In this document: one piece after another, positions 6,179 to 47,850 of the stretch
How the letters are laid out: every line of letters starts with the position of its first letter
Position numbering within the stretch: the stretch's first letter is position 1
Origin: Candidatus Gottesmanbacteria bacterium
GTDB taxonomy: Bacteria; Patescibacteriota; Microgenomatia; UBA10105; UBA927
Reading direction: 5' to 3'
Length of the DNA: 64,000 bases
Assembly (NCBI GenBank): GCA_963701185.1
Contig: OY969569.1
Coordinates: 667,548 to 731,547 of the forward strand
The notes under the pieces: model-generated
What the model was told of the DNA's origin: nothing
Databases searched by the model: none
What the model saw: the letters and a program-made list of their open reading frames with translations, nothing else
Translations under genes and position numbers: made by a program

Positions 6179-8779
6179 CTACATAACGAAGTTTATCAGT
6201 CTCCCCGGAACAAAAATTATCTTTTTCACCGCTTTTCCCGCGAGATATTTTTTAATATTTTCCCGATTTTTTGCTTCCGTCTCTATATCTTTCTGTATAG
6301 AAGCACTGCCCGCTGCTACGGTAATTGTATCGCGAAGTTTTCCATTCACTTGAATGGCAATTGTCACGTCCTCACGAAGTATTTTAGACGTATCACTTTT
6401 TGGCCACGGCTGGAGATGCACGGATTGTGATGGTTTGAACTCTTTATATCCATTTACCTGCTGCCACAGCTCTTCGGCACAATGCGGCGCAAGCGGCGCC
6501 AAGATACAAATAAACTTTTTGAGATCATCAATACCCACTGTTGTCTGTTCATCACTCACTCCATTCGTCCACTCCATCAAACCGGCTATCGCTGTATTAT
6601 ACCGACGCTTTTCAAGATCATCACCGACCCGACGAATGGCCTTCTCAAGCGCCGAAGATATTGCAGCGCTCGATGTCTGTGACTGCTTACTGACCGATGC
6701 CTGTGCCATACGCCATATACGACCAACCCACCGGGACATTCCCTCCATGGCGGTATCACGGAAATCGCCACCCTGATCGAACGGCCCCATGAACATTAAA
6801 TAGAGCCGCAATGCATCAGAACCATACAATTTTATATATTCATCGGGGTTCACGACATTCCCTTTACTTTTGCTCATCTTCGCGCCGTCTTTGATCACTA
6901 ACCCGTGGGCATAAAAACGGGTAAACGGCTCTTCGAAATCTACGTATCCCCAGTCATGGAGGGCCATCGTGACAAAACGGGCATACATAAGATGCAACAC
7001 GGAGTGTTCTGCCCCGCCGGTATATAGAGAAACCGGAAGCCATTTTTTGGTAATCGCGGGATCCCAGGGTAATTTTTGCTTGTCATCCCCGACCTGATCG
7101 GGGATCTGCGTTTGATTTCCTTTAAAACCAATACCGATTCCCGCCTTCGCGGGAATGACAACAGAATCGAGGCCAACAGAAGGGTAACGAAGGAAATACC
7201 AGGAACTATCTAAAAATGTATCAGAAACATCTGTTTCCCGTACAGCTTTCCCCCGGCACCCCGGGCAAGTGGTTTCATAAAACTCTTTGTGTTTCGCAAG
7301 CGGCGCCACGCCGTCATCGCCCGGTTTGTAATCCTCAATACGGGGCAACAGAACAGGAAGGTCGCTCTCCGGCACCGCATACCACCCCGGCATGTCTTTC
7401 CGTTCCCCTTTACCTTCTGACGCACACTTCTTACAAAAAATCATCGGAATGGGCGGACCCCAGTAACGTTGGCGGCTGATAAGCCAATCACGCAGATGAT
7501 AGGTCGTCACGCGTACCCCCCACCCTTTTTTCTCCATATAGTCCATAATTTTTTCCGTAGCTTTATGAATATCCATTCCGTCAAGGAATCCGGAATTCAT
7601 CAGTATTCCCGCTTCCTCCTGCACCTGATCCGCCCGTGAAATGTCCGAGATGTCAGCGTCTGCACCTTTAACAACACGAATGATAGGTATATCAAACTGT
7701 ATCGCAAAGGCAAAATCCCTTTTATCATGACCGGGTACTCCAACCACCGCACCGGTCCCCACGCTGGCGAGCACGAAATCGGAAACATAGAGCGGCATAC
7801 GGCGCCCCGTGAGTTGATTGATACAGAAGAGATGCGTGAATACACCGGTTTTTGTCTGACCCTCAGCGATCCGAACACTTTCCATTTTTACTTTGGCAGC
7901 CTCAATATATTGGGTCAGTTTGACACGCTCTTCCTTTTTTATCACTTCCAACACCTTATTGATAAAGGGATGTTCGGGTGCAAGCACTACAAAAGTGGCT
8001 CCAAAATTGGTATCAGGGCGAGTTGTGAAGCATGTCACGTCACCAACGTTCTTACCATTTTCATCAACAACATCATAGGTAATGTTCATTCCCTCTTTTT
8101 TCCCGATCCAATTGGTTTGCGCGACTTTTATTTTTTCTGACCAATCGAGGCTGGATAAGTTTCTCAGTAATTTCTCCGCATATGCGGTAATCTTAAAGAA
8201 CCACTGTTCCAACAATCTTTTCTCTACAATATTCCCGCAACGCTCACATTTCCCATCAATGACCTGTTCATCGGCTAAAACCGTTTTATCCGAAGGACAC
8301 CAGTTTACACTCGCCTTCCTCCGATATGCTAACCCGCGCTTGAACATCTGAACGAATAGCCACTGCGTCCACCGGTAATAGCCGGGGTCGTACGTTTCGA
8401 GCGTCCTGTCCCAATCAAACATCGCACCGATTTTATGCAACTGATCGTAAAATTTCTTTTCTGTCACAACCGCATGGTCCATGGGATGACGGCCGATTTT
8501 CAGCGCGAAATTTTCGCTGTGAATGCCGAATCCATCCAGTCCGATCGGCTCAAACACATCGTACCCCAGCATCCGTTTGAACCGGCCGTAGATATCGGAT
8601 CCCGTGACAGCGTACATATTGCCGACATGCAGCCCTTCCGCGGACGGATACGGGAACATCATAAGGTTATAGAACGGCTTCGTAGCTTTAGAAATATTCG
8701 GAGAATCAAGCTTTGTTTGGCGCCACGCCTTCTGCCATTTTTCCTCGACCTCTGTATGGTCATACAACGGCATCGTCAT
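6179..8779 (-). CDS. leuS: leucyl-tRNA synthetase
   Basis: 866 aa. HVGNMYAV (HIGH-like) and KMSKSKGN (KMSKS) motifs. Start taken at MTMPLYDHTEVEEKWQKAW (ATG 8779) within ORF 6179..8818. Confidence 0.9.
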   Translation of the reverse strand: MTMPLYDHTEVEEKWQKAWRQTKLDSPNISKATKPFYNLMMFPYPSAEGLHVGNMYAVTGSDIYGRFKRMLGYDVFEPIGLDGFGIHSENFALKIGRHPMDHAVVTEKKFYDQLHKIGAMFDWDRTLETYDPGYYRWTQWLFVQMFKRGLAYRRKASVNWCPSDKTVLADEQVIDGKCERCGNIVEKRLLEQWFFKITAYAEKLLRNLSSLDWSEKIKVAQTNWIGKKEGMNITYDVVDENGKNVGDVTCFTTRPDTNFGATFVVLAPEHPFINKVLEVIKKEERVKLTQYIEAAKVKMESVRIAEGQTKTGVFTHLFCINQLTGRRMPLYVSDFVLASVGTGAVVGVPGHDKRDFAFAIQFDIPIIRVVKGADADISDISRADQVQEEAGILMNSGFLDGMDIHKATEKIMDYMEKKGWGVRVTTYHLRDWLISRQRYWGPPIPMIFCKKCASEGKGERKDMPGWYAVPESDLPVLLPRIEDYKPGDDGVAPLAKHKEFYETTCPGCRGKAVRETDVSDTFLDSSWYFLRYPSVGLDSVVIPAKAGIGIGFKGNQTQIPDQVGDDKQKLPWDPAITKKWLPVSLYTGGAEHSVLHLMYARFVTMALHDWGYVDFEEPFTRFYAHGLVIKDGAKMSKSKGNVVNPDEYIKLYGSDALRLYLMFMGPFDQGGDFRDTAMEGMSRWVGRIWRMAQASVSKQSQTSSAAISSALEKAIRRVGDDLEKRRYNTAIAGLMEWTNGVSDEQTTVGIDDLKKFICILAPLAPHCAEELWQQVNGYKEFKPSQSVHLQPWPKSDTSKILREDVTIAIQVNGKLRDTITVAAGSASIQKDIETEAKNRENIKKYLAGKAVKKIIFVPGRLINFVM

Positions 8780-9816: not shown

Positions 9817-9846
9817 TTGACAAACACAGCCTCTTCCCTTTTTAAT
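9817..9846 (+). promoter_or_regulatory. candidate sigma70-type promoter TTGACA-N18-TTTAAT for the giant gene
   Basis: TTGACA at 9817-9822 and TTTAAT at 9841-9846. The TTG that opens the ORF-track ORF at 9817 is this -35 hexamer. The first in-frame ATG downstream is at 9934. Confidence 0.35.
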
Positions 9847-9933
9847 AAGAGTAGGCCTAAATTCCCCGATGACATCTATAGACAAAGTAGTGACAACCGG
9901 AAGCCGGTTTTTGCTACGAAATTATTTTTTGGT

Positions 9934-22047
<12,114 letters not shown>

Positions 22048-28169: not shown

Positions 28170-29743
28170 AACCGCTTGTTCTGACCGTCATCCTTTTTAT
28201 CCTGCAACTCGGATTATTTCTTTGGATTACCCTCCGGCCGTTTTCCATAAGCCCGCAAGGAAGTTCGTATTATGTCCTCCACGGACAGAGCGCGTACACG
28301 GCATATATACGTGAGTCCAAAGAAGGCGCATGGAAGGTCACGAATCCCTACACCACCCGGCCGAATCCGCCAATCTACGCGCATCTGTTTTATGTATTTT
28401 TAGGTAAAATTGCAGCGGTATTTTCGTTTGATACAATCGCCACCTCCATGGTAACCCATGTCGTTGCCGGCCTCATTCTTTTTCTTGCCACCTATTGGTG
28501 TATCGGCAAAATCCTTCCCGCAAATCTCCAAACACTTGCGGTTCTCTTCACCCTCGGATTGGAACCCGGCCCGCTAGTGTCAGAAATAAAAAATATCGCG
28601 TCACTGGCATTTGCGCGGCCCGTTATATTCAGCTTTTTCCCACAGGAAGTGGTACTGCGGCACTTCGGGCTCCCGCATCATGTTTTGGCGGAGGCACTCG
28701 GTTTATTGATACTGGGGAATGTCTTTTTATTTGTAAAAAGGGCGTCATGGCAGCGGTTGGCGGGTATCGCACTCCTTACTGTCGCCGGGACACTCATTAT
28801 GCCGGTATACAACAGTATCTTAATGCTGACAGTAGGCATTGCGTGGTTCGTATGGTCTCTTATACATGGCCACATCAAAAAAAATCTGCCGGCCTTTATC
28901 ACGATTTTTGTATGTTTTGGAGCCGCGGCACTATTTATTAAACTCCAAATGGACACGAGCTTCATGTGGAAAAATTATAGCCTGGACGAAAAACGCTGGG
29001 TGACGGATGGTGATATTGTTATCAATTACCTTTCGTCGCTCGTTCTGTACCTGCCGGCAATTGTATTCCTATGGGCGACACTGCTACGGCGCTCGTGGCA
29101 TCTGATGGTCGTACTGTTCACTACATGGATCGTAGGACCTCTTCTGTACATCCCCCTCACACATATGTCCCTCTTTCCGTTTGCCAATTTTCGGTTGGTG
29201 GACGGATATTCCTATGTTCCTGCAGGAATTCTGGCCGCCATGGGAATATCGGAAATCAGCCGTTTGAGCGGTAAAACCATCGCGAAGTTCGCCGTCATAC
29301 TCATGCTTGCCGCCTCACTGTTCCTCACGGTCAGCTATACGAGAAAAACGTTTGAAGACCAGCAGAGGATCTATACGAATGTCTATCTGTTGCGGGAGGA
29401 GTGGGATGCAATCCGCTTCCTTTCAACCATCCCGCGTCACAGTGGCGTTATGGTCATGAAATATGTCGGGGAGATTATTCCTGCGTACGACTCAGTGCGT
29501 GTTTTTCTGGGTGAAACTCCCGGCGCTCTCGACTGGCAGGAACGCTACGACATCGCCGTCCGGTTCTATTCCGGGCTCCTGACGGATAGTGAAGCACGCA
29601 CTATCCTCCGACAGGAAAATATTTCCTATGTTTATTGGGGACAGGATGAAAAAGTATTCTCAAAAACTCCGACACTGTACCCCAATGTCCTTATTCCTGT
29701 TTTCCAAAATCCCGCCGTTACTATTTTCGCGCAAAAACAATAA
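28166..29743 (+). CDS. large polytopic membrane protein, GT-C-like paralog family member
   Basis: Multi-TM N-terminal half. C-terminal ...ENISYVYWGQDEKVFSKTPTLYPNVLIPVFQNPAVTIFAQKQ motif shared with 32519..33751, 36545..38152 and 51996..54026. Confidence 0.5.
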   Translation: MKPLVLTVILFILQLGLFLWITLRPFSISPQGSSYYVLHGQSAYTAYIRESKEGAWKVTNPYTTRPNPPIYAHLFYVFLGKIAAVFSFDTIATSMVTHVVAGLILFLATYWCIGKILPANLQTLAVLFTLGLEPGPLVSEIKNIASLAFARPVIFSFFPQEVVLRHFGLPHHVLAEALGLLILGNVFLFVKRASWQRLAGIALLTVAGTLIMPVYNSILMLTVGIAWFVWSLIHGHIKKNLPAFITIFVCFGAAALFIKLQMDTSFMWKNYSLDEKRWVTDGDIVINYLSSLVLYLPAIVFLWATLLRRSWHLMVVLFTTWIVGPLLYIPLTHMSLFPFANFRLVDGYSYVPAGILAAMGISEISRLSGKTIAKFAVILMLAASLFLTVSYTRKTFEDQQRIYTNVYLLREEWDAIRFLSTIPRHSGVMVMKYVGEIIPAYDSVRVFLGETPGALDWQERYDIAVRFYSGLLTDSEARTILRQENISYVYWGQDEKVFSKTPTLYPNVLIPVFQNPAVTIFAQKQ

Positions 29744-30576
29744 GATCATCCCAGGGGTTTATCGGATTCTTCAATTTAAACCGGTCCAAAAATTTCCCGA
29801 TGGGTTGTAAAATCCCTGCTGCCCACGGGAAATAATCGGCCGCGCGGGTAAATACAAAAGATAACGGGAACGGCCGTGGTGAATCGGGGCGGATGATAAT
29901 ATTTCTGAATCCCGCCCGTTTAAAAAGTTCCCGTAAAGACTTTCTATCCCAAAATGTCACATGTTCCGGGTGATGATACCCTACCCACCATTTTCCCATC
30001 ATTTTTCGCCAAATGCTGTTATGATTCGGGGTTGTCAGGACGGCCTCACCGCCTTTATTGAGCAGTTTATATACCCGCTTCATCATGCCTAAGGGATTAC
30101 GCTCATGTTCGATGATTTCAAACGCGGTAACGACATCAAACTTCGATGTGGGCCATGTTTGAGAAACACGAAGTCCCCTTTTTTTGCAATAGGAAACTGC
30201 GTCTTTGGAAATATCTACCCCCTGCGCTCTTATCCCTACTTTTTTGGCTTCTTCCAGTAATACTCCCATGGCACAGCCGATATCAGTAATATTGGTCTGT
30301 CATTCCCGTGAGGCGGGAATTGTTATTGTTGTATTGTGAAAACTAATATCGATTCCTCACAGGCGCGGATGATAATTGAAGCGTTTTCCTAAAATATTCC
30401 CTATGCACGGGAATCTGGGCGATGTACGGCTCAAAATGCTCCAAATCTTCGTGATACAATTTTTCAATCTCTTTTTCACCGGGCATCGGCACCATCTGTA
30501 CCAATCCGCAGGTCGTACATTTTTTCAATCTATAAATAACGGAAAATCGGGTAGACCCGCACAATACGCACCTCAT
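29721..30576 (-). pseudogene. zinc-ribbon class I SAM methyltransferase interrupted by a ~70-bp hairpin-containing insertion (paralog of 31632..32522)
   Basis: 30343..30576 encodes the CxxC..CxxC zinc-ribbon plus EHFEPYI and ends in TAG. 29721..30269 encodes the MTase core. Motif I DIGCAMG sits immediately after an in-frame TGA with no upstream start. The intervening 30270-30342 contains hairpin ATTCCCG-tgagg-CGGGAAT. Confidence 0.5.
30302..30320. repeat. hairpin element ATTCCCG-N5-CGGGAAT (member of a small palindromic repeat family, cf. 45100-45161)
   Basis: 7-bp perfect inverted repeat, flanked by GTC at the 5' side as in the 45097 copy. Confidence 0.5.
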
Positions 30577-31586
30577 ATAGTCTTTTTTAACAGATAATAG
30601 GCCGCGCCCGCAAGAATAACGACATACAATACCAATCCGGCCCCCAACGCTTTCAGCATAAATCCACTCCCCTTCTCACGATAACAAAACCACAGAAACT
30701 TGCGAAGAAGAAGAATATGAAAAAGAAAAAGAACGGCGGCAGAGACGATCGTGACCATACGTACCCAGGAAAACGGCAACACAAAATACAGAAGTATCCC
30801 CATGACGATAATCCCCAGAGCTCCTACCCCCGCGGCGGCTGTCGCGGTCTCCGACATGGTGGTTGCGACTGTATCAAATTTTCGATGGGTGCCGTAGAGC
30901 TTCGTCCAGTAAAAACTGCGCCAGAAATATTTCCTGGCAACCGCAAAAAACCCTTCAAATTCATGGTGAACCCTCACATCAGGCGCGAAGATGATCGCAT
31001 AACGCTTGGCGATCCGGTACGTAAGCTCCACATCCTCCATCTGCCGGAACGCCTCGTTAAAACCTCCCAACCGGTCAAATACATCGCGGCGGATGGCGGC
31101 GTTCCTGGTGCTGAACAGGTAATAATATCCGTCGCGGTCGCGTTCGTTGGTCCAATAACTCCAGTCGCGCATGGCTTTAAATTGGGGGAAAAATGATGTG
31201 GTACGCTGGTGTTTATCCCACACGCCTGTCAGCGCAATCAAATCAGGGTCTTCACAAAATTTATTGGCAATATTGGTTAACGTATCGGGGTACACCGTCA
31301 CATCCGCATCCAAAAAAACTAATACCTCGCCCCGTGCCCGTTTCACGGCAGCATTGCGGGCTGCAGCCGGACCGCGGTTGTGTGTCAGGCGGGTAACAGT
31401 CAGCGGGAACCGCGGGCGGATGCCCTGAAGCTTCCTGACGGTCAGCTGCTCGTTTGATGCGTCATCACCGATAATCACTTCAAAGTTCTTATATGATGAC
31501 GTTGTGAGCGATCCCAGAAGCTTCCCGAGCGTTTCGCTTGCATTGTAGGCAGGGATGATAATCGAAAGATACGGTTTACCCCTCAT
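30573..31586 (-). CDS. family 2 glycosyltransferase with C-terminal TM segments
   Basis: LSIIIPAYN...IIGDDAS...DAD motifs of the GT2 (GT-A) fold. C-terminal membrane helices. Confidence 0.7.
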   Translation of the reverse strand: MRGKPYLSIIIPAYNASETLGKLLGSLTTSSYKNFEVIIGDDASNEQLTVRKLQGIRPRFPLTVTRLTHNRGPAAARNAAVKRARGEVLVFLDADVTVYPDTLTNIANKFCEDPDLIALTGVWDKHQRTTSFFPQFKAMRDWSYWTNERDRDGYYYLFSTRNAAIRRDVFDRLGGFNEAFRQMEDVELTYRIAKRYAIIFAPDVRVHHEFEGFFAVARKYFWRSFYWTKLYGTHRKFDTVATTMSETATAAAGVGALGIIVMGILLYFVLPFSWVRMVTIVSAAVLFLFHILLLRKFLWFCYREKGSGFMLKALGAGLVLYVVILAGAAYYLLKKTI

Positions 31587-31631: not shown

Positions 31632-32522
31632 TTATGCCTTAGCCGTTACGATCATAATATCAAGAGGAAGTGGAAACTGAAGATACGACAAAGGAGTGAT
31701 ACGGAATACTTTTTCGGCCCATACGCATAACCCCTTCGACCATGGGTGACCAACAACATGCATGACTCCACGGAAAAGAAAATGTATCGGGTACCAGCGC
31801 GTTTCGTCGCCCACAGAGCGGATATGATGAAATCCTGCTTTTTTCAAAAGCAACGTCATTGTCTCACGGGAAAAAAAGTACAGATGCTCCTGATGACGGT
31901 AATTACGCCAATGCTTTCCCAAAAGATGTTGCAGATACCCTCCCTCCCGCGGTGTTGAGAAAAGTATAACCCCGCCGGGTTTTATCACGCGGTGAATCTC
32001 GCGCAGGAACGCCAACGGGTCGGAAACGTGTTCGATAAGATGAAATCCTACCACGCCGTCGAAAGAATGCGACGGAAATTTCGCCCGAAATAGGTCTGTT
32101 GCGCGGGCATTGAGCCCCTGATTCTTCGCATACGCAACAGCCTCCCACGAGATATCGATGCCTATGCAGTCCAGATGTGCGCGTTTCGCCTCCTCAAGAA
32201 AAAATCCATACGATGAGCCGATTTCCAACACTTTCTTGCCGAGGAGAATCGTCCGTAAGAATGTAATTTTCCGCCTGAAATATGACAAAAGCAGTGGTTT
32301 CTCGGCCATATAGTCGTAATACCCCACGGATGACGCCGTTCGTGTTTTATCCGACGCAAAATAATTCTTGTTATACATCAGGGTAAGCTCATGATCCGTG
32401 GGCTGCGGATTAACATAGACAAGTCCGCAGCCGGCACAGCGGACAATCCGATGATGCGGCAGATTAAGATAAACCGTGTACGTGTCGTGTCCGCACAAGG
32501 GGCACACCATGTCGTTTTTCAT
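31632..32522 (-). CDS. class I SAM-dependent methyltransferase with N-terminal zinc-ribbon
   Basis: CPLCGHD...CAGCG zinc ribbon, then VLEIGSSYG (motif I) and IKPGGVILFSTP (post-II). Full-length counterpart of the disrupted gene at 29721..30576. Confidence 0.7.
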   Translation of the reverse strand: MKNDMVCPLCGHDTYTVYLNLPHHRIVRCAGCGLVYVNPQPTDHELTLMYNKNYFASDKTRTASSVGYYDYMAEKPLLLSYFRRKITFLRTILLGKKVLEIGSSYGFFLEEAKRAHLDCIGIDISWEAVAYAKNQGLNARATDLFRAKFPSHSFDGVVGFHLIEHVSDPLAFLREIHRVIKPGGVILFSTPREGGYLQHLLGKHWRNYRHQEHLYFFSRETMTLLLKKAGFHHIRSVGDETRWYPIHFLFRGVMHVVGHPWSKGLCVWAEKVFRITPLSYLQFPLPLDIMIVTAKA

Positions 32523-42607: not shown

Positions 42608-43213
42608 GTGGAAAACGATATGTCTCCGTATAAAAAAGTCATTGCGATAGCGGTCGCGATTACCGTTATCGGTATCATTCTTGTCCTGGTCCATTATCAG
42701 CAAATTTCAGGCAGGACCGGCTCCATCGTCATTCCCGCCGGCAATACCTACCTCGGCCCCACACCGACACAATCCCCGACGAGTGACACATGGCAGACGG
42801 TCAAAGGAAACATCTATCCCTACGCGATGAGTGTTCCTGCATCGCTTACGCTTACCACGTTCCCTAATGACCCGTACGATATGTACGCGATTGCCGGCCG
42901 CGACCCTGAATCAAATGTCCTCATCGGTATTGACACGAAAGCCAATCCGTCAGAGACCAAATCAGCGTATATCCAAAGCTGGCGGAAACAGTTCAGTGTA
43001 CTGACCGGCGTCAAAAGCATTGATCCGTTTACCAACAGCAAGGGGCTCAAGGGATACAAAGTAAAATTTCTCAACGCCGGCGGCGAAAGCCCGAATTCCG
43101 ATATCTTTTTTGAAGTGCCGGACAAACCTCAATACGTCATTCATCTGAGTAACGGACCGCTTGACGGAACCGTATTTGACACCATCGTTGACAGCGTCGG
43201 ATGGAACCAATAA
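42608..43213 (+). CDS. membrane-anchored extracytoplasmic protein of unknown function
   Basis: N-terminal TM helix VIAIAVAITVIGIILVLV followed by a soluble ~170-aa domain. Confidence 0.4.
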   Translation: MENDMSPYKKVIAIAVAITVIGIILVLVHYQQISGRTGSIVIPAGNTYLGPTPTQSPTSDTWQTVKGNIYPYAMSVPASLTLTTFPNDPYDMYAIAGRDPESNVLIGIDTKANPSETKSAYIQSWRKQFSVLTGVKSIDPFTNSKGLKGYKVKFLNAGGESPNSDIFFEVPDKPQYVIHLSNGPLDGTVFDTIVDSVGWNQ

Positions 43214-45087
43214 TGAAAAAGTCATCCCTGCCGATCCTGATGACTGCCGGCTTTATTATTTCCTTATTTATCCGGCTTCTATTGATTCCCAATCCCGGTT
43301 TTGAGGCGGATGTCGCATTCTGGAAATCGTGGGGGCTTGCCGTATTGGATTTTGGGATCGTCAAAGGCTTATTAGTCACCAATTTCAACTACCCCACCCC
43401 ATTCGGGTATTTCCTTGCACTCATGCCCGCCGCGTACCGGCTATTTGCAGACCCCCATAATTTCAGCCAATATTGGCAAAATACAAACCTATTATTTTTA
43501 ATCGTGGCCAAACTTCCGGCAATTATCGCCGACTTCGGCATTGCGGGTATTATTCTCTGGATCGGGAAAAACGTTCACTCCGATAAAATCGGAGCAGGAA
43601 AAATCAATTTTCCCGATATGCCATATACGATATACGCTCTTTTCGCTCTTGTCTATCTTCTCAATCCCGTTTCCTGGATGGACAGCGCATGGTGGGGTCA
43701 GGTCGATAGTCTCGGCGTCATTGTCTTTTTAGGAGCGTTTCTCCTTGTTGTCACCAAAAAACCATTTCTGGCAGGCATGATCTATATGTTGGCCATGATG
43801 ACCAAACTCCAGAATATGATTTACGGGCCCATCTTTTTCCTGTTTATCTGGCAATATATAGGGTTTGACGGACTCGTAAAAAGCATTGCGGGATCACTCA
43901 TCACGTTTGCCGGCCTGAATATCGAATTTATCCTTTCCGGCAACTCATGGAAGGTTATAGAATCTCTGACAGGCAATTACGACTATTTCCCGTGGCTGTC
44001 CCTCAATGCGTTCAATCTCTGGTGGACCGTCTCCGGCGCCCGGGGAATGCAGTTTTCCGACAAATTGCTTTCGGTGGGACTTGCCAATGCAAAAACCGTC
44101 GGACTCACTCTTTTTTCCGCCGGTTATTTATTGGCGGCGCTGATACTAAAACCATTTGCATTTCTTACAAAGCATACAGACGATGCCCCTACCATCACAT
44201 ACCGGTTTCTTACCGCCCTTGTCGTTGCTAACGCGTCTTTTTTCCTGTTTCAGACGGAATCGCATGACCGCTATGCGTTCCCGCTCATTGTTTTCTTACT
44301 CCTTTGGGGTATCTTTTGGATCCGCCGACACCTCACGGTAAAAGAACTCCCCCGCGTTTTTTCAAGCTCTCCGTTCCGTTCATTCATGATTCTTTATTCA
44401 TTATTCAGTATTCCTTATTTCTACAATCTTCATACGGCACTGGTCTTTAATTATCCTCATAACGGCATGCCCATCCTCTCGACCTTCATCCAACCCAATC
44501 TGACTATCAGTGTTTCCCTTCTTTTCATCGGGTTATTTTTCTTCTTTGTATACGTCATACGGCGCGACACGGGAATGTGGACATTCGCGATACCTGCGGC
44601 GCTGGTGATTTTTGCACTGCTTGCAAAAAATATACCGCTTGTCACCCGTACGCCGGTTTCCCTTACGGCCATGACACCGGTGTCTGCATCCCAGGATTAC
44701 GGAATACGGCAAATAAATATGCCGGTCAACGCATATGCAGGATTTGATAAATGGGGATCTCTATCGGTCCAATATGCATTCTATCGACACGGGATCGGCA
44801 CCCATGCCAAAAGTACGCAGATATTTGATCTCCAGAAATATTTTACCAGGTTTTCCTTCGACTACGGCATTGACACCGAGGCCGGCCCCAGAGGAAGTGT
44901 TACATTTGAAGTCTACGGTGATGACAAAAAACTTTTCGCATCGGAAAAAATCGGCCGGTATGATTTACCTCGCCACGCTGACGTAAGCGTGGCGGGCATA
45001 CATCTGTTGAAACTGGTCGTCACGGATGCAGGAGACGGCATTACGGACGACCATGCCGATTGGCTGAATCCGAAATTATATCCATAG
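43201..45087 (+). CDS. large GT-C-like polytopic membrane protein with C-terminal NPCBM-like carbohydrate-binding module
   Basis: More than 10 TM helices and a first-loop acidic motif NPGFEADVAFW. The C-terminal 110 aa (GSVTFEVYGDDKKLF...LKLVVTDAGDGITDDHADWLNPKLYP) resemble the NPCBM/F5-8-like beta-sandwich. Confidence 0.5.
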   Translation: MEPIMKKSSLPILMTAGFIISLFIRLLLIPNPGFEADVAFWKSWGLAVLDFGIVKGLLVTNFNYPTPFGYFLALMPAAYRLFADPHNFSQYWQNTNLLFLIVAKLPAIIADFGIAGIILWIGKNVHSDKIGAGKINFPDMPYTIYALFALVYLLNPVSWMDSAWWGQVDSLGVIVFLGAFLLVVTKKPFLAGMIYMLAMMTKLQNMIYGPIFFLFIWQYIGFDGLVKSIAGSLITFAGLNIEFILSGNSWKVIESLTGNYDYFPWLSLNAFNLWWTVSGARGMQFSDKLLSVGLANAKTVGLTLFSAGYLLAALILKPFAFLTKHTDDAPTITYRFLTALVVANASFFLFQTESHDRYAFPLIVFLLLWGIFWIRRHLTVKELPRVFSSSPFRSFMILYSLFSIPYFYNLHTALVFNYPHNGMPILSTFIQPNLTISVSLLFIGLFFFFVYVIRRDTGMWTFAIPAALVIFALLAKNIPLVTRTPVSLTAMTPVSASQDYGIRQINMPVNAYAGFDKWGSLSVQYAFYRHGIGTHAKSTQIFDLQKYFTRFSFDYGIDTEAGPRGSVTFEVYGDDKKLFASEKIGRYDLPRHADVSVAGIHLLKLVVTDAGDGITDDHADWLNPKLYP

Positions 45088-45099
45088 TTTTGGGTTGTC

Positions 45100-45161
45100 A
45101 TTCCCGCGCAGGCGGGAATCGGTATTTGTTTTGAACGCAGATCCCCGATCAAGTCGGGGAT
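45100..45161. repeat. two tandem hairpins ATTCCCGC-gcag-GCGGGAAT and ATCCCCGA-tcaag-TCGGGGAT
   Basis: Two perfect 8-bp inverted repeats 21 nt apart, in the intergenic region just upstream of the 45172 start. Same family as the 30302-30320 element. Confidence 0.5.
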
Positions 45162-45171
45162 GACAAGAAAA

Positions 45172-47442
45172 ATGAAACATATTGAAAAATATATCAGTAT
45201 CGCAATGCTCCTTTTTGCCGTCGGATGTAACCTGTGGTTGTTCCGCTCCGAACCCACGGCAAAAGTGGACCCGAATGACAATACATTCCAGTTTGCTCTG
45301 GTCTACCGGACAAACCAAATATGGGATTTTGCACAGCAAAAGTGTTCATACAATCCCGTATGTTTTTTCTCCTATCTTGCCGATCATTGGGTCCCGAATT
45401 GGAACGAAGGGTACAATCTCCCCTTCTATTATTCTCATATTCCCCAAATTGTCATTGTAGGCACGTGGCGGTTACTATCTTCGACTATTTCGCTTTTTGC
45501 GTATTACCATCTCGTCATCTATCTCCTCCTCTCTGTCTTTCCGATTTCGGTATTTTTGGCGTTGCGGGTCGCCGGATTTTCATGGCTTACCGCCGGTTTT
45601 GGAGCGATTCTTGCATCCCAAATCTCGACAGACGGGCTATACGGCCTTGACCCGTCGTCGTTTTTGTGGCGTGGCTACGGCCTCTCGAGCCAACTGTTTG
45701 CCATGATCTGGCTTCCGATTGCTCTCGCATACTGCTATAAGGCGCTCACAAACAAACGGGCAATCATTCCCGCAATTATTTTCGTACTTTTTACCACGGC
45801 GGGGCATCTTGGTATCGGTATGATGACATTTTTGGCCCTTATTCCCCTGGCTCTGGCCGCGCCCATCCTGGCATTTTTTCAAAAACAATCAGTACAAAAC
45901 ATATTCGGCCCTCTGAAAAAAAACGCAGTGACCATCGGTATTATCGGGGCAGCCGCAATCGGGTTCTTAAGCTACTGGATCCTGCCGGCAATGTCCCTCG
46001 ACCGGTTCCACAACTTTTCCTTCTGGGATCCGGTGTGGAAATTTAATTCCTACGGCGTCAAAGAAGTAATCATACGATTATTCAACGGCGCGCTGTTTGA
46101 TTTTGGCAGACTGCCGGTCTTTACTGGGTTGGTTTTTATTGGTTTATTCATTATTCATGATTCATCATTCACTATTCTCTTTATTTTCTTTCTCCTCCTC
46201 TACGTCGGCAGAACAACATGGGGAAATTTGTTTGACATCATCCCCGGGATGAAGGAATTCCATTTATCGCGTTTTATCGTCGGCGTACATATCGCAGGGC
46301 TCTTTTTAGCACCGATCGGACTTGCATGGATTATTGAGAAGATTAAAAAATTTATTGGATTATTTGCTTATTTGCTTATTGGATTATTGGTAGTATTCGT
46401 TTATCCCCAAACCGTCCGCTATGCCGCATACAACGATACGCTTATTGCGAAAGCCAACGACAACTATGCCAAACAGGCAACGGGAGCAAATAGTTTGATT
46501 GCGGCTCTGCAGGAACTGGAACAAAAAGCCCCCGGCCGGGTATTTTCAGGGCGCGGCGGCGGCTGGGGAAAAGATTTTAAGATCGCCGAAACTACGATGA
46601 CGATGTATCTGGGGAACTTTGGACTACCCACGGTTCTCTGGATGCCGGAGACGTGGTCACCAAATGCCGATACCGAACAGTATTTCAGGGAAGATAAGGA
46701 AGAAGATTATGACCTGTATAATATCCGCTACGTGGCAACACCGGTAGGTATAGCGAAAGAAAATATCCAGCCGTTCTGGAAAGTAATACAAGAAAATCCT
46801 TCATGGAAGATCTATGAGGTACCGACATCCGGTTACTTTACTGCAGGTGTACGGCCTGCGGTGGTTGCATCCGACAAATACTCCCGCGCCAATGTCGTCC
46901 GGCTCTGGATCCAATCCAGCGACCCCAAAAACGGCCTCTATCCGGAACTCTCGTTCGACACAAAAAAATACCCGGTCAATGTCGGACTGCCGAACTTCAA
47001 AATGATTGATGAAGTAACGTTTCAGGTGCCGGACGGCTCCACCCACAACCTTTTTTCCGAACCACCAAAGTATCTCTCCCTTATCACCCCTAGCTCCCTT
47101 ATCTCCCTTAGTTCCCAGACTAATGATACGGATATGGTTTTTTCTACTCATGTGAAGGTAGCGGAGGGCTGCACCGAATGTATAGTTATATTAAAACAAA
47201 CCTACCACCCCAACTGGCAGGTCACGGTTGACGGAAAATCAGTAACCCCGATCATCACGTTCCCGTTTTTCATCGGGATTCCGGTAAGTGCAGGAAACCA
47301 CACTATTGTGGCCTCATATAAACCATCGAACGTAAAAGTTATATTGTTATCTATCTCCCTGATTACCCTTATTTCCTTTACTCTTTGGTTTCTCGCCCGA
47401 AAACTGGGGATTGACATGAGCACACAAAATACTGCAAACTAA
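45172..47442 (+). CDS. large polytopic membrane protein (YfhO/GT-C-like) with extracytoplasmic C-terminal beta-rich domain
   Basis: Start MKHIEKYISIAMLLFAVG at 45172. The ORF-track start 45160 lies inside the hairpin. More than 12 TM helices, then a ~330-aa soluble region and a C-terminal TM. Confidence 0.5.
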   Translation: MKHIEKYISIAMLLFAVGCNLWLFRSEPTAKVDPNDNTFQFALVYRTNQIWDFAQQKCSYNPVCFFSYLADHWVPNWNEGYNLPFYYSHIPQIVIVGTWRLLSSTISLFAYYHLVIYLLLSVFPISVFLALRVAGFSWLTAGFGAILASQISTDGLYGLDPSSFLWRGYGLSSQLFAMIWLPIALAYCYKALTNKRAIIPAIIFVLFTTAGHLGIGMMTFLALIPLALAAPILAFFQKQSVQNIFGPLKKNAVTIGIIGAAAIGFLSYWILPAMSLDRFHNFSFWDPVWKFNSYGVKEVIIRLFNGALFDFGRLPVFTGLVFIGLFIIHDSSFTILFIFFLLLYVGRTTWGNLFDIIPGMKEFHLSRFIVGVHIAGLFLAPIGLAWIIEKIKKFIGLFAYLLIGLLVVFVYPQTVRYAAYNDTLIAKANDNYAKQATGANSLIAALQELEQKAPGRVFSGRGGGWGKDFKIAETTMTMYLGNFGLPTVLWMPETWSPNADTEQYFREDKEEDYDLYNIRYVATPVGIAKENIQPFWKVIQENPSWKIYEVPTSGYFTAGVRPAVVASDKYSRANVVRLWIQSSDPKNGLYPELSFDTKKYPVNVGLPNFKMIDEVTFQVPDGSTHNLFSEPPKYLSLITPSSLISLSSQTNDTDMVFSTHVKVAEGCTECIVILKQTYHPNWQVTVDGKSVTPIITFPFFIGIPVSAGNHTIVASYKPSNVKVILLSISLITLISFTLWFLARKLGIDMSTQNTAN

Positions 47443-47702: not shown

Positions 47703-47775
47703 GGGCCTGTAGCACAGCTGGTAATGCGCCGCATTCGCATTGCGGAGATCAGCGGTTCGATTCCGCTCAGGTCCA
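47703..47775 (+). tRNA. tRNA-Ala (anticodon CGC)
   Basis: Hand-folded cloverleaf: acceptor GGGCCTG/CAGGTCC with G3:U70, anticodon stem CCGCA/TGCGG, loop TTCGCAT, T-arm AGCGG-TTCGATT-CCGCT. Confidence 0.75.
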
Positions 47776-47779
47776 CACC

Positions 47780-47850
47780 GGGCCCGTAGTATACCGGTAG
47801 AACGACTCCATGGCATGGAGTAGAAAGGGGTTCAATTCCCCTCGGGTCCA
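47780..47850 (+). tRNA. tRNA-Ala (anticodon GGC)
   Basis: Acceptor GGGCCCG/CGGGTCC with G3:U70, anticodon stem ACTCC/GGAGT, loop ATGGCAT, T-arm AGGGG-TTCAATT-CCCCT. D-arm pairing is weak in the hand fold. Confidence 0.6.

What the first reader, a model, noticed from the sequence alone, without database searches (positions are those of the whole stretch)
29721..30576. Zinc-ribbon methyltransferase gene interrupted by a ~70-bp insertion carrying a CCCG-loop-CGGG hairpin, with more copies of the hairpin elsewhere
Seen in sequence: 31632..32522 encodes an intact zinc-ribbon plus SAM-MTase protein. Its paralog is in two pieces. 30343..30576 has the zinc ribbon and linker and stops at TAG. 29721..30269 has the MTase core, with motif I DIGCAMG directly after an in-frame TGA. 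The 73-bp spacer contains GTC-ATTCCCG-tgagg-CGGGAAT. The intergenic region at 45097-45161 contains GTC-ATTCCCGC-gcag-GCGGGAAT plus a related hairpin ATCCCCGA-tcaag-TCGGGGAT-GAC. Inference: a small REP- or MITE-like palindromic element family, one copy of which has inserted into and inactivated a gene, or is a mobile terminator.
Basis: partly seen in the sequence, partly recalled or inferred. Interest (0 to 1): 0.55.

Follow-up and report, generated by a model that had tools for sequence, protein, structure and literature searches.

The report
Palindromic repeat pair splitting a methyltransferase gene
A 75-bp copy of a widespread double-hairpin bacterial repeat (the CGTC-REP / Neisseria NTS / Rickettsia RPE-6 kind) sits in a methyltransferase gene of a candidate-phyla-radiation bacterium; relatives translate the repeat in frame as a harmless linker, but here later small mutations have broken the gene, and this kind of repeat is already known.

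Summary
The minus-strand zinc-ribbon methyltransferase (MTase) gene at 29721..30576 is split by a 75-bp element (30299..30373). Two intact copies lie in the window. One is intergenic (45097..45164).

Each copy is two hairpins in inverted orientation with TGTC tags outside. This matches the published "CGTC-tagged REP" head-to-head dimer (Di Nocera 2013; equivalent to Neisseria dRS3 and Rickettsia RPE-6). It also matches the NTS/SRM hairpins cut by Ssn GIY-YIG single-strand nucleases (Nat Commun 2025). An exact two-hairpin pattern found over 120 loci across many phyla.

At least ten orthologues carry the element at or within two codons of the same linker site, in frame. They hold it at full length in either orientation, or collapsed to one hairpin. 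The syntenic closest relatives lack it.

The window copy is a decayed version. It has a TGG-to-TAG change and two uncompensated 1-nt deletions. The result is most likely a pseudogene.

No target-site duplication was found, and no transposase or GIY-YIG gene lies in the window. This is a new member of a known kind, of moderate to low interest.

The parts
30299..30373 (+). Decayed copy of the double-hairpin element (a CGTC-REP head-to-head dimer), lying antisense to the MTase gene. The TGTC tag is at 30298-30301. Hairpin A is at 30302-30320 (ATTCCCG-TGAGG-CGGGAAT). A 30-nt spacer follows. The degenerate hairpin B and tag are at 30351-30373 (GATTCCTCACAGGCGCGGATGAT).
   Evidence: Alignment with the two intact copies. 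nhmmer E 2e-19. Only hairpin A still folds; z-scores are -1.1 and -1.9, against -4.2 and -4.4 for the intact copies.
30343..30576 (-). 5' fragment of the MTase gene: zinc ribbon plus linker, 77 codons. The ATG overlaps the TGA of the upstream GT2 gene (ATGA). The last ~10 codons (SSAPVRNRY*) are element sequence. The TAG at 30345-30343 corresponds to TGG (W) in the in-frame copy of orthologue P0063.
29721..30298 (-). 3' part of the MTase gene. GNDRPILL is read in frame 3. After a missing G in CTG(G)ATATC, DIGCAMG... is read in frame 2 to the stop at 29721. The only canonical start (ATG 30269) lies inside motif I, so the 182-aa ORF lacks strand beta-1 and the start of the glycine loop.
   Evidence: The Pfam match of the 182-aa ORF starts at profile position 34 of 164.
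31632..32522 (-). Intact, distant paralogue: a zinc-ribbon plus class I SAM MTase of 296 aa. It is also present next to the intact orthologue in the syntenic locus L002.
30573..31586 (-). GT2 glycosyltransferase immediately upstream, translationally coupled to the MTase. The gene order is the same as in the relative with the intact MTase.
7082..7159 (-). Intact 78-bp element copy, in frame inside the leucyl-tRNA synthetase gene (6179..8779, minus strand). It encodes VIPAKAGIGIGFKGNQTQIPDQVGDD. Hairpin A is at 7137-7156 and hairpin B at 7085-7105.
   Evidence: 34 window residues replace 4 of T. thermophilus LeuRS; the closest orthologue P0123 has an empty site.
45097..45164 (+). Intact 68-bp intergenic copy, starting 10 nt after the stop of the NPCBM-domain gene 43201..45087. 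Its terminal ATGAC supplies the first in-frame ATG (45160) of the downstream YfhO-like ORF.

Best explanation
**What the element is.**
- It is a head-to-head dimer of CGTC/TGTC-tagged REP hairpins.
- Hairpin A (TGTC-ATTCCCGC-N4-GCGGGAAT-C) is the NTS/dRS3/CGTC-1 type.
- Hairpin B (ATCCCCGA-TCARG-TCGGGGAT-GACA) has an 8-bp stem and a 5-nt loop.
- It is a non-autonomous palindromic repeat that spreads without target-site duplication. In other bacteria its hairpins, as single-stranded DNA, are substrates of small GIY-YIG Ssn nucleases.

**How it came to split the gene.**
1. A 78-bp copy (26 codons) landed in the length-variable linker between the zinc ribbon and SAM-binding motif I of this MTase, in an ancestor of several Gottesmanbacteria-like lineages.
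2. One reading frame of the element is open in each orientation, so it was translated as extra linker and tolerated.
3. In some lineages it collapsed to a single 27-bp hairpin by deletion between the two CGGG arms.
4. In the window's lineage the copy decayed.
   - A compensated -1/-2 pair sits at the left end.
   - A TGG-to-TAG nonsense change follows (30345-30343).
   - One nucleotide is lost in the hairpin A loop.
   - One G is lost in CTG(G)AT, 15 nt beyond the element.
5. The gene is now split into a 77-aa zinc-ribbon stub and a 182-aa ORF without motif I. It is most likely a recently inactivated pseudogene.

**Shown versus inferred.** Shown: the anatomy, the homology of the copies, the family assignment, the in-frame orthologous copies, the empty sites and the lesions. 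Inferred: loss of function, the mobilising enzyme, and hairpin-driven hypermutability as the reason all lesions cluster in the element.
For: **The copies are homologous and match the published motifs.**
- Three homologous copies against 0.01 expected.
- Tag, stem and loop geometry fit Di Nocera et al. 2013 (PMC3733652).
- Two hairpins match the NTS consensus CGTCATTCCCGCGMAVGCGGGAATCYRG with 3 mismatches, against 0 expected.
- Both intact B hairpins match the published SRM (Ssn-related motif) pattern in full. The A hairpins fail only the last 3 tail positions (pattern from PMC11893778).

**The same architecture is widespread.**
- Over 120 loci from many phyla share it, with loops that are reverse complements of each other and variable spacers.
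- In-frame copies sit in real genes elsewhere: UvrB, a Mur ligase, a beta-CASP RNase and a Wzy_C protein.

**Comparison with MTase orthologues.**
- The syntenic intact orthologue has no insert (P0002/L002).
- Orthologues carry in-frame full-length or single-hairpin copies at or within two codons of the same site.
- The L001 single hairpin GTCATCCCCGACCTGATCGGGAATGAC is exactly the product of a CGGG/CGGG deletion.
- The window copy shares ATCCGCGCCTGT with the L126 copy, and its frame-1 reading parallels the L126 reading: DRSWYSHKTKTDSRL against NRY*FSQYNNNNSRL.

**LeuRS.** The site is empty in the 88%-identical orthologue segment.
Against: - The source genome outside the window could not be retrieved. 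Genome-wide copy number and the presence of an ssn gene are therefore unknown. No GIY-YIG ORF lies in the 64 kb.
- The window copies have tail CGG rather than the usual CCA/CYRG.
- The closest MTase orthologues (72-79% identity) lack the element, while more distant ones (57-69%) have it. A single ancient insertion therefore needs precise losses, or else there were several independent insertions. Two slightly different junctions (LQT|VIP and LQEIKT|VS) and both orientations favour more than one event.
- The two MTase halves show 0 deviations at 99 conserved columns, and all lesions lie within about 95 nt. A long-dead pseudogene would not look like this. Loss of function is inferred, not shown.
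Confidence: 0.8

Rival explanations
1. One reading: a recent transposition of the element into an intact gene is itself the inactivating event.
For: The gene is interrupted exactly where the element sits. The rest of the gene is undamaged.
Against: - A pristine 78-bp copy in this orientation has an open frame (VIPD...RLRGND), and orthologues translate it.
- The window copy is the most degenerate of the three. Only one hairpin still folds.
- It shares derived changes with the in-frame copy in L126.
- Disruption needs a nonsense change plus two frameshifts that are not part of the element consensus.
Confidence: 0.08
2. The two pieces are a functional split gene, or the element is skipped by translational bypassing or frameshifting, so MTase activity is retained.
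For: There are zero changes at 99 conserved columns in both halves. At least three lesions all lie inside about 95 nt of an 860-nt gene; by my rough estimate the chance of that is ~0.01 if lesions fell uniformly after the first one.
Against: - No canonical start codon lies between the TGA and motif I.
- The ORF from ATG 30269 lacks LLDIGCA, and its Pfam match starts at profile position 34.
- TGA is used as a stop here (the GT2 gene ends in the ATGA overlap), so there is no recoding.
- No matching take-off and landing codons lead into the DIGCAMG frame. The Tyr codons after the element lead to TGA or to the wrong frame (reading).
- Hairpin-associated indel hot spots explain the clustering more simply.
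Confidence: 0.07
3. The hairpins are functional RNA or DNA signals (transcription terminators, mRNA stabilisers, nuclease or uptake-control sites) rather than selfish repeats, and the copy in the MTase is a side effect.
For: - The intergenic copy lies 10 nt after a stop codon, and its hairpin A followed by CGGTATTTGT meets a loose terminator consensus.
- REPs lie mostly downstream of ORFs (PMC3733652).
- NTS repeats modulate transformation through SsnA in Neisseria (PMC11893778).
Against: - The same hairpin and tail lie on the sense strand inside the essential LeuRS mRNA, so it cannot be an efficient terminator.
- The terminator scan found no more sites than in shuffled sequence.
- This reading does not explain the intragenic copies.
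Confidence: 0.2

Closest known systems
CGTC-tagged REPs, families CGTC-1 and CGTC-2, head-to-head dimers (Di Nocera, De Gregorio and Rocco 2013, BMC Genomics 14:522; these include Neisseria dRS3 and Rickettsia conorii RPE-6/RPE-4)
   Same: - A terminal TGTC tag, which is a listed variant of CGTC.
- 8-bp stems starting with AT.
- 4-nt loop (hairpin A) and 5-nt loop (hairpin B).
- Tags on the outside, which is the paper's definition of a head-to-head (HH) dimer.
- Spacers of 22-32 bp with complementary ends.
- A heterodimer of two hairpin types.
- In-frame intragenic copies encoding 20-30 residues, in tRNA synthetase and repair genes.
- No flanking transposase.
   Different: - The tail is CGG/CTG instead of the usual CCA.
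- The host is a Patescibacteria (CPR) bacterium, a group not among the five phyla listed in 2013.
- One copy is caught in decay, splitting its host gene. The paper assumed such copies are purged.
NTS / SRM (Ssn-related motif) hairpins and the SsnA GIY-YIG single-strand DNA nuclease (Nat Commun 2025, 16:2388)
   Same: - Hairpin A equals the NTS consensus apart from C1 to T and the tail.
- The cytosine after the palindrome, reported as the key base for binding, is kept in the four intact hairpins and lost in the decayed hairpin A.
- The B hairpins satisfy the published SRM pattern.
- One related locus (L010) shows the hairpin-GIY-YIG-hairpin arrangement.
   Different: No ssn gene lies in the window, and the rest of the genome could not be examined. 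Cleavage or any role in mobility is untested here. Even for Neisseria, the paper shows cutting and an effect on transformation, not transposition.
Rickettsia palindromic elements (RPE; Ogata et al. 2000, from my own knowledge, and as summarised in PMC3733652)
   Same: Palindromic repeats inserted in frame into essential protein-coding genes, translated as extra surface or linker peptide, and compatible with function. The LeuRS copy here and the MTase orthologues show the same behaviour.
   Different: RPE-1 is longer (~100-150 bp) and unrelated in sequence. Only RPE-6/RPE-4 are CGTC REPs. The host here is free-living or epibiotic CPR, not an obligate intracellular alphaproteobacterium.
REPINs and their RAYT transposases (Bertels and Rainey 2011)
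   Same: Two REP hairpins in inverted orientation that can fold into one long hairpin. They are non-autonomous and produce no target-site duplication.
   Different: REPINs carry a GTAG tag and are tied to a RAYT (IS200/IS605-type) gene flanked by the same REPs. This element has a TGTC tag. The published survey found no RAYT association for CGTC repeats.

Membership tests
CGTC-tagged REP (CGTC-1/-2) head-to-head dimer | Unpaired terminal tag CGTC (variants TGTC and CCTC are allowed) at the outer end of each hairpin | tested here: met
   TGTC lies at both ends of the 7082-7159 and 45097-45164 copies. The 30299-30373 copy has TGTC at one end and TATC at the decayed end (definition).
CGTC-tagged REP (CGTC-1/-2) head-to-head dimer | 8-bp stem beginning with AT; loop of 4 nt (family 1) or 5 nt (family 2) | tested here: met
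   ATTCCCGC-GAAG/GCAG-GCGGGAAT and ATCCCCGA-TCAGG/TCAAG-TCGGGGAT.
CGTC-tagged REP (CGTC-1/-2) head-to-head dimer | Short unpaired tail, mostly CCA | tested here: not met
   The window copies have CGG (hairpin A) and CTG (hairpin B). Most of the 129 copies from other genomes have CCA. The paper says 'most' tails fit CCA, so this is a soft criterion.
CGTC-tagged REP (CGTC-1/-2) head-to-head dimer | Repeated in the genome, commonly as inverted pairs with 20-100 bp spacers | tested here: met
   Three dimers lie in 64 kb, with spacers of 22-32 bp. Genome-wide copy number could not be tested.
NTS / SRM (substrate of Ssn nucleases) | Match to the NTS consensus or to the SRM pattern HGTCWYN(0-2)YYVSBRHN(0-5)WNVSBRGN(0-2)RNCYNB | tested here: met
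   NTS matches with 3 mismatches at 7133-7160 and 45096-45123, against 0 expected. SRM matches in full at 7081-7109 and 45137-45165. The A hairpins fail only the final YNB. The decayed copy fails.
NTS / SRM (substrate of Ssn nucleases) | An ssn (single-domain GIY-YIG, cd10448) gene in the same genome, typically flanked by the repeats | tested here: inconclusive
   The window has none: regex, tblastn, and a 119-sequence GIY-YIG profile with best E 0.11. The other ~930 kb of the genome could not be retrieved. Small GIY-YIG genes are common in Patescibacteria, and one is flanked by hairpins in L010.
NTS / SRM (substrate of Ssn nucleases) | Cleavage of the hairpin as single-stranded DNA by the cognate nuclease | not testable with these tools
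   This is a biochemical assay.
REPIN / RAYT system | GTAG tag on the REP, and a RAYT gene flanked by the same REPs | tested here: not met
   The tag is TGTC, not GTAG. No gene family is enriched next to the other-genome loci; the top clusters are ABC transporters, acyl-CoA dehydrogenases and response regulators. RAYT was not searched for specifically.
Classical MITE | Terminal inverted repeats plus a target-site duplication | tested here: not met
   Inverted ends are present, but there is no duplication at the filled versus empty LeuRS site or at the MTase site.
RPE-like in-frame 'selfish DNA in genes' | Insertion inside a conserved protein-coding gene that keeps the reading frame and is absent from close orthologues | tested here: met
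   The LeuRS gene has 78 nt (26 codons) in frame. The insert is absent from P0123 and from the solved LeuRS sequence it was aligned with (T. thermophilus 1h3n). MTase orthologues hold in-frame copies.

The most novel reading that the evidence does not exclude
These NTS/CGTC hairpin dimers may still be mobile in CPR bacteria and insert with site preference into flexible linkers of coding sequences. Three observations point that way. The same MTase linker is occupied in both orientations and with two slightly different junctions. The same LeuRS loop is occupied by different inserts in two lineages. In-frame copies sit in UvrB, Mur ligase and RNase genes elsewhere. If a small Ssn-type GIY-YIG nuclease is the mobilising or processing enzyme, this would be the missing 'transposase' of CGTC repeats, and a recurrent source of new protein linkers in minimal genomes.
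Probability: 0.15. Interest if true: 0.7.

Novelty: new member of a known kind. Interest (0 to 1): 0.38.

Why it matters
- **Range.** It extends a described repeat class (CGTC REPs, equivalent to dRS3/NTS/RPE-6) to candidate-phyla-radiation bacteria with ~1-Mb genomes. These repeats sit even inside an essential aminoacyl-tRNA synthetase gene there.
- **A natural series at one site.** One gene family shows an empty site, a full in-frame dimer in both orientations, a collapsed single hairpin, and a decayed gene-splitting copy. This documents how such elements are tolerated, trimmed, and occasionally kill a gene.
- **Annotation.** The 77-aa and 182-aa ORFs should be annotated as one pseudogene. 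Peptides such as VIPAKAGI, IPDQVGDD and SRLRGND inside proteins flag these repeats.
- **Limits.** It does not reveal a new mechanism. What mobilises these repeats remains open.

Tried and rejected
- **Retrieving the source genome.** I looked up exact window proteins to count copies and find an ssn gene. They were not on record.
- **Rfam.** Only two tRNAs matched in the window.
- **Literature search for element-encoded peptides** (SFPRKRES, VIPAKAGI and others). No papers.
- **A gene family enriched beside the other-genome loci** (a candidate transposase). The largest clusters were ordinary ABC transporters, acyl-CoA dehydrogenases and response regulators. GIY-YIG genes appeared in only 2 loci.
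- **Target-site duplication.** None.
- **Alternative genetic code (TGA read as sense).** Rejected, because TGA terminates the adjacent GT2 gene.
- **Translational bypass.** Rejected, because no take-off and landing codon pair leads into the DIGCAMG frame.
- **Relaxed selection on the MTase halves.** No excess of changes at conserved columns. This test has little power for a recent event.
- **Intrinsic-terminator role.** Consensus matches were no more frequent than in shuffled sequence.
Full report
**1. The observation**

On the minus strand, 30576..30343 encodes MRCVLCGS...CTTCGLV...EYFRKTLQLSSAPVRNRY and stops at TAG. One frame over, a TGA (30302..30300) is followed by QTNITDIGCAMGVLLEEAKK..., running to the stop at 29721.

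Joined, the two pieces align over their full length with the intact 296-aa protein of 31632..32522 (29% identity, E 9e-46). Both hit Methyltransf_23/11/12/25/31.

The only canonical start for the downstream piece is the ATG inside motif I. That 182-aa ORF matches the Pfam profile only from position 34 of 164.

The hairpin pattern ATTCCCG-N3-8-CGGGAAT occurs three times in the window, against 0.01 expected.

**2. Anatomy of the element**

The three sites are homologous along 68-78 bp (nhmmer E 9e-25, 1.5e-19 and 2e-19, with nothing else in the window below E = 0.27).

The consensus reads: (T)GTC-ATTCCCGC-N4-GCGGGAAT-CGGTATTKGTTTT...AACGCAG-ATCCCCGA-TCARG-TCGGGGAT-GAC(A). This is two 8-bp-stem hairpins in inverted orientation, tags outside, with a 22-32-nt spacer.

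| Copy | Coordinates | Length | Location | Folding z-score (DNA) |
|---|---|---|---|---|
| c7k | 7082..7159 | 78 bp | in frame in LeuRS | -4.4 |
| c45k | 45097..45164 | 68 bp | intergenic | -4.2 |
| c30k | 30299..30373 | 75 bp | in the MTase gene | -1.1 / -1.9 |

In the MTase copy only hairpin A survives. Its second hairpin is degenerate (GATTCCTCACAGGCGCGGATGAT) and forms the last codons and the TAG of the upstream fragment. The element is therefore not the same as the 73-bp gap between the ORFs.

**3. A third copy inside an essential gene**

The ORF at 6179..8779 (minus strand) is leucyl-tRNA synthetase (E 5e-200 to T. thermophilus LeuRS). The 78-bp copy lies in frame within it and encodes VIPAKAGIGIGFKGNQTQIPDQVGDD.

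- Against the solved enzyme, 34 window residues replace 4.
- The closest orthologue segment (P0123, 88% identical in the alignment) reads PSVGLNRDLLPWDP where the window reads PSVGLDSV[26 aa]KQKLPWDP.
- At DNA level, GGCCTTAATCGCGACCTT|TTACCCTGG compares with GGCCTCGATTCTGTT[78 nt]AAGCAAAAATTACCCTGG. There is no target-site duplication.

**4. What the orthologues of the split gene show**

The organism is a Gottesmanbacteria-like member of the candidate phyla radiation, judging from the names on P0026, P0052, P0068 and P0121.

A syntenic locus (L002, GCA_040960175.1) has the same order: paralogue MTase, GT2, MTase, and a convergent 525-aa gene. Its MTase is one intact 263-aa gene with no insert...EYFRKKIKEIKKRGALLDIGCAMG.

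Many other orthologues carry the element at or within two codons of the same point, in frame.

| State of the element | Orthologue | Encoded peptide at the site |
|---|---|---|
| Full length, same orientation as the window | P0009 | VIPDPIGDRSWFSNKTKTDSRLRGND |
| Full length, same orientation as the window | P0063 | VIRACRGDRSWYSHKTKTDSRLRGND |
| Full length, opposite orientation | P0032 | VIPAKAGIRVSSTKPKPIPDQVGND |
| Full length, opposite orientation | P0026 | VIPAKAGIRVSSIKPKPIRQLADD |
| Single hairpin | P0006 | VIPDLIGND |
| Single hairpin | P0029 | VIPDRVGND |
| Single hairpin | P0044 | VIPAKAGIQND |
| Partial | P0022, P0008, P0047 | partial element peptides |

A profile built only from the three window copies finds the full-length ones at E 2e-21 to 8e-7.

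The P0006 hairpin, GTCATCCCCGACCTGATCGGGAATGAC, is exactly what a deletion between the CGGG arms of the two hairpins would leave.

The linker between HREYF and LLDIG ranges from 12 to 48 residues in this family, so it is a permissive site.

**5. How the window copy broke**

Aligned with the in-frame copy of P0063 (L126), the window shares the degenerate ATCCGCGCCTGT of hairpin B. Its frame-1 reading runs parallel to the orthologue: DRSWYSHKTKTDSRL in L126 against NRY*FSQYNNNNSRL in the window.

The lesions, in order along the gene, are:
1. A compensated -1/-2 pair at the left junction and the hairpin B loop.
2. TGG to TAG (30345-30343).
3. One nucleotide lost in the hairpin A loop. This moves the reading to frame 3, where GNDRPILL matches GNDKRPKLL of P0006.
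4. One G lost in CTG(G)ATATC. This moves the reading to frame 2, giving DIGCAMG.

The insertion therefore did not inactivate the gene. Later point lesions in an old, translated insert did.

TGA is a genuine stop here, because the GT2 gene ends in the ATGA overlap, so recoding is excluded. No take-off and landing codon pair supports bypassing.

Outside the element the gene is undamaged, with 0 deviations at 99 columns that are at least 90% conserved. I read this as recent inactivation plus hairpin-prone indels. This is an inference. A functional split gene is not strictly excluded.

**6. What kind of element it is**

They came from Proteobacteria, Planctomycetota, Gemmatimonadota, Nitrospirota, Verrucomicrobiota, Bacteroidota, Chloroflexota, Elusimicrobiota, Actinomycetota, Omnitrophota and many CPR lineages.

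The 129 copies share several features:
- GTCATTCCCGCG-loop-CGCGGGAATCCAG...CTGGATCCCCGC-loop'-GCGGGGATGAC.
- Loops that are reverse complements of each other.
- Spacer ends that are complementary to each other.
- Spacers that vary in sequence.
- Pyrimidine before the element and purine after it.

Several copies lie in frame in real genes: UvrB, a Mur ligase, a beta-CASP RNase, a Wzy_C protein and HsdS.

This matches two published descriptions.
- **CGTC-tagged REPs** (PMC3733652). The features are:
  - a CGTC or TGTC tag, 8-9-bp stems starting AT, 4-5-nt loops and a CCA tail;
  - mostly head-to-head dimers;
  - equivalence to Neisseria dRS3 and R. conorii RPE-6/RPE-4;
  - frequent in-frame intragenic copies in repair genes and tRNA synthetases;
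  - no dedicated transposase.
- **NTS/SRM hairpins** (PMC11893778). CGTCATTCCCGCGMAVGCGGGAATCYRG flanks the small GIY-YIG gene ssnA, whose product cuts the hairpin as single-stranded DNA.

The window hairpins match NTS with 3 mismatches. The B hairpins match the SRM pattern in full. The tail differs (CGG rather than CCA).

**7. Mobilising enzyme**

No GIY-YIG ORF lies in the window, and the rest of the genome could not be retrieved.

In L010 the gene is bracketed by hairpins. Such genes are common in Patescibacteria.

No other gene family is enriched beside the elements.

The link to Ssn is therefore by analogy with the literature. It was not shown here.

**8. Verdict**

The finding is real and the family assignment is secure. 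The causal story needs correcting: an old, tolerated, in-frame repeat decayed and split the gene.

This is a new member of a known kind, in a new host group, with an instructive evolutionary series at one site. Interest is moderate to low.

Noticed in passing
window 7082-7159 (within LeuRS gene 6179-8779, minus strand): An intact 78-bp copy of the same element lies in frame in the essential leucyl-tRNA synthetase gene and adds 26 residues. The closest orthologue (P0123) has an empty site. Another close orthologue (P0153) has a different ~36-residue insert in the same loop.
   Followed up: yes
window 9817-22047 (+): A 4076-aa ORF with N-terminal HTH/MerR DNA-binding domains, followed by a very long collagen triple-helix (GXY) repeat region (Pfam Collagen E 7e-242). 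It raises local G+C to 0.60-0.66, against ~0.48 elsewhere in the window.
   Followed up: partly
window 45160-45174: The terminal ATGAC of the intergenic element provides the first in-frame ATG (45160) of the downstream YfhO-like ORF. A second ATG follows at 45172. The repeat may thus donate or mask a start codon.
   Followed up: no
loci L057, L082, L070, L073, L114, L119 and others (flanks listed): Many copies in other genomes have a half-arm GTCATTCCCGC about 9 nt upstream and a half-arm GCGGGGATGAC about 9 nt downstream. The element looks as if it sits nested within, or arrayed with, further partial hairpins. This is unexplained.
   Followed up: no
proteins P0125, P0126, P0133, P0189, P0163 and others: Many LeuRS hits are ~380-430-aa C-terminal halves. 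Several of them begin MDSEKAKW. Some lie on contigs of 180-750 kb, so they are not cut off by contig ends. This suggests that LeuRS is encoded as two genes in those lineages.
   Followed up: no
L127 2433-2964: In one relative, a BrnT/CopG-like toxin-antitoxin pair sits directly downstream of the element-bearing MTase orthologue.
   Followed up: no
window 47703-47775 and 47780-47850 (+): Two adjacent tRNA genes. These were the only Rfam matches in the window.
   Followed up: no
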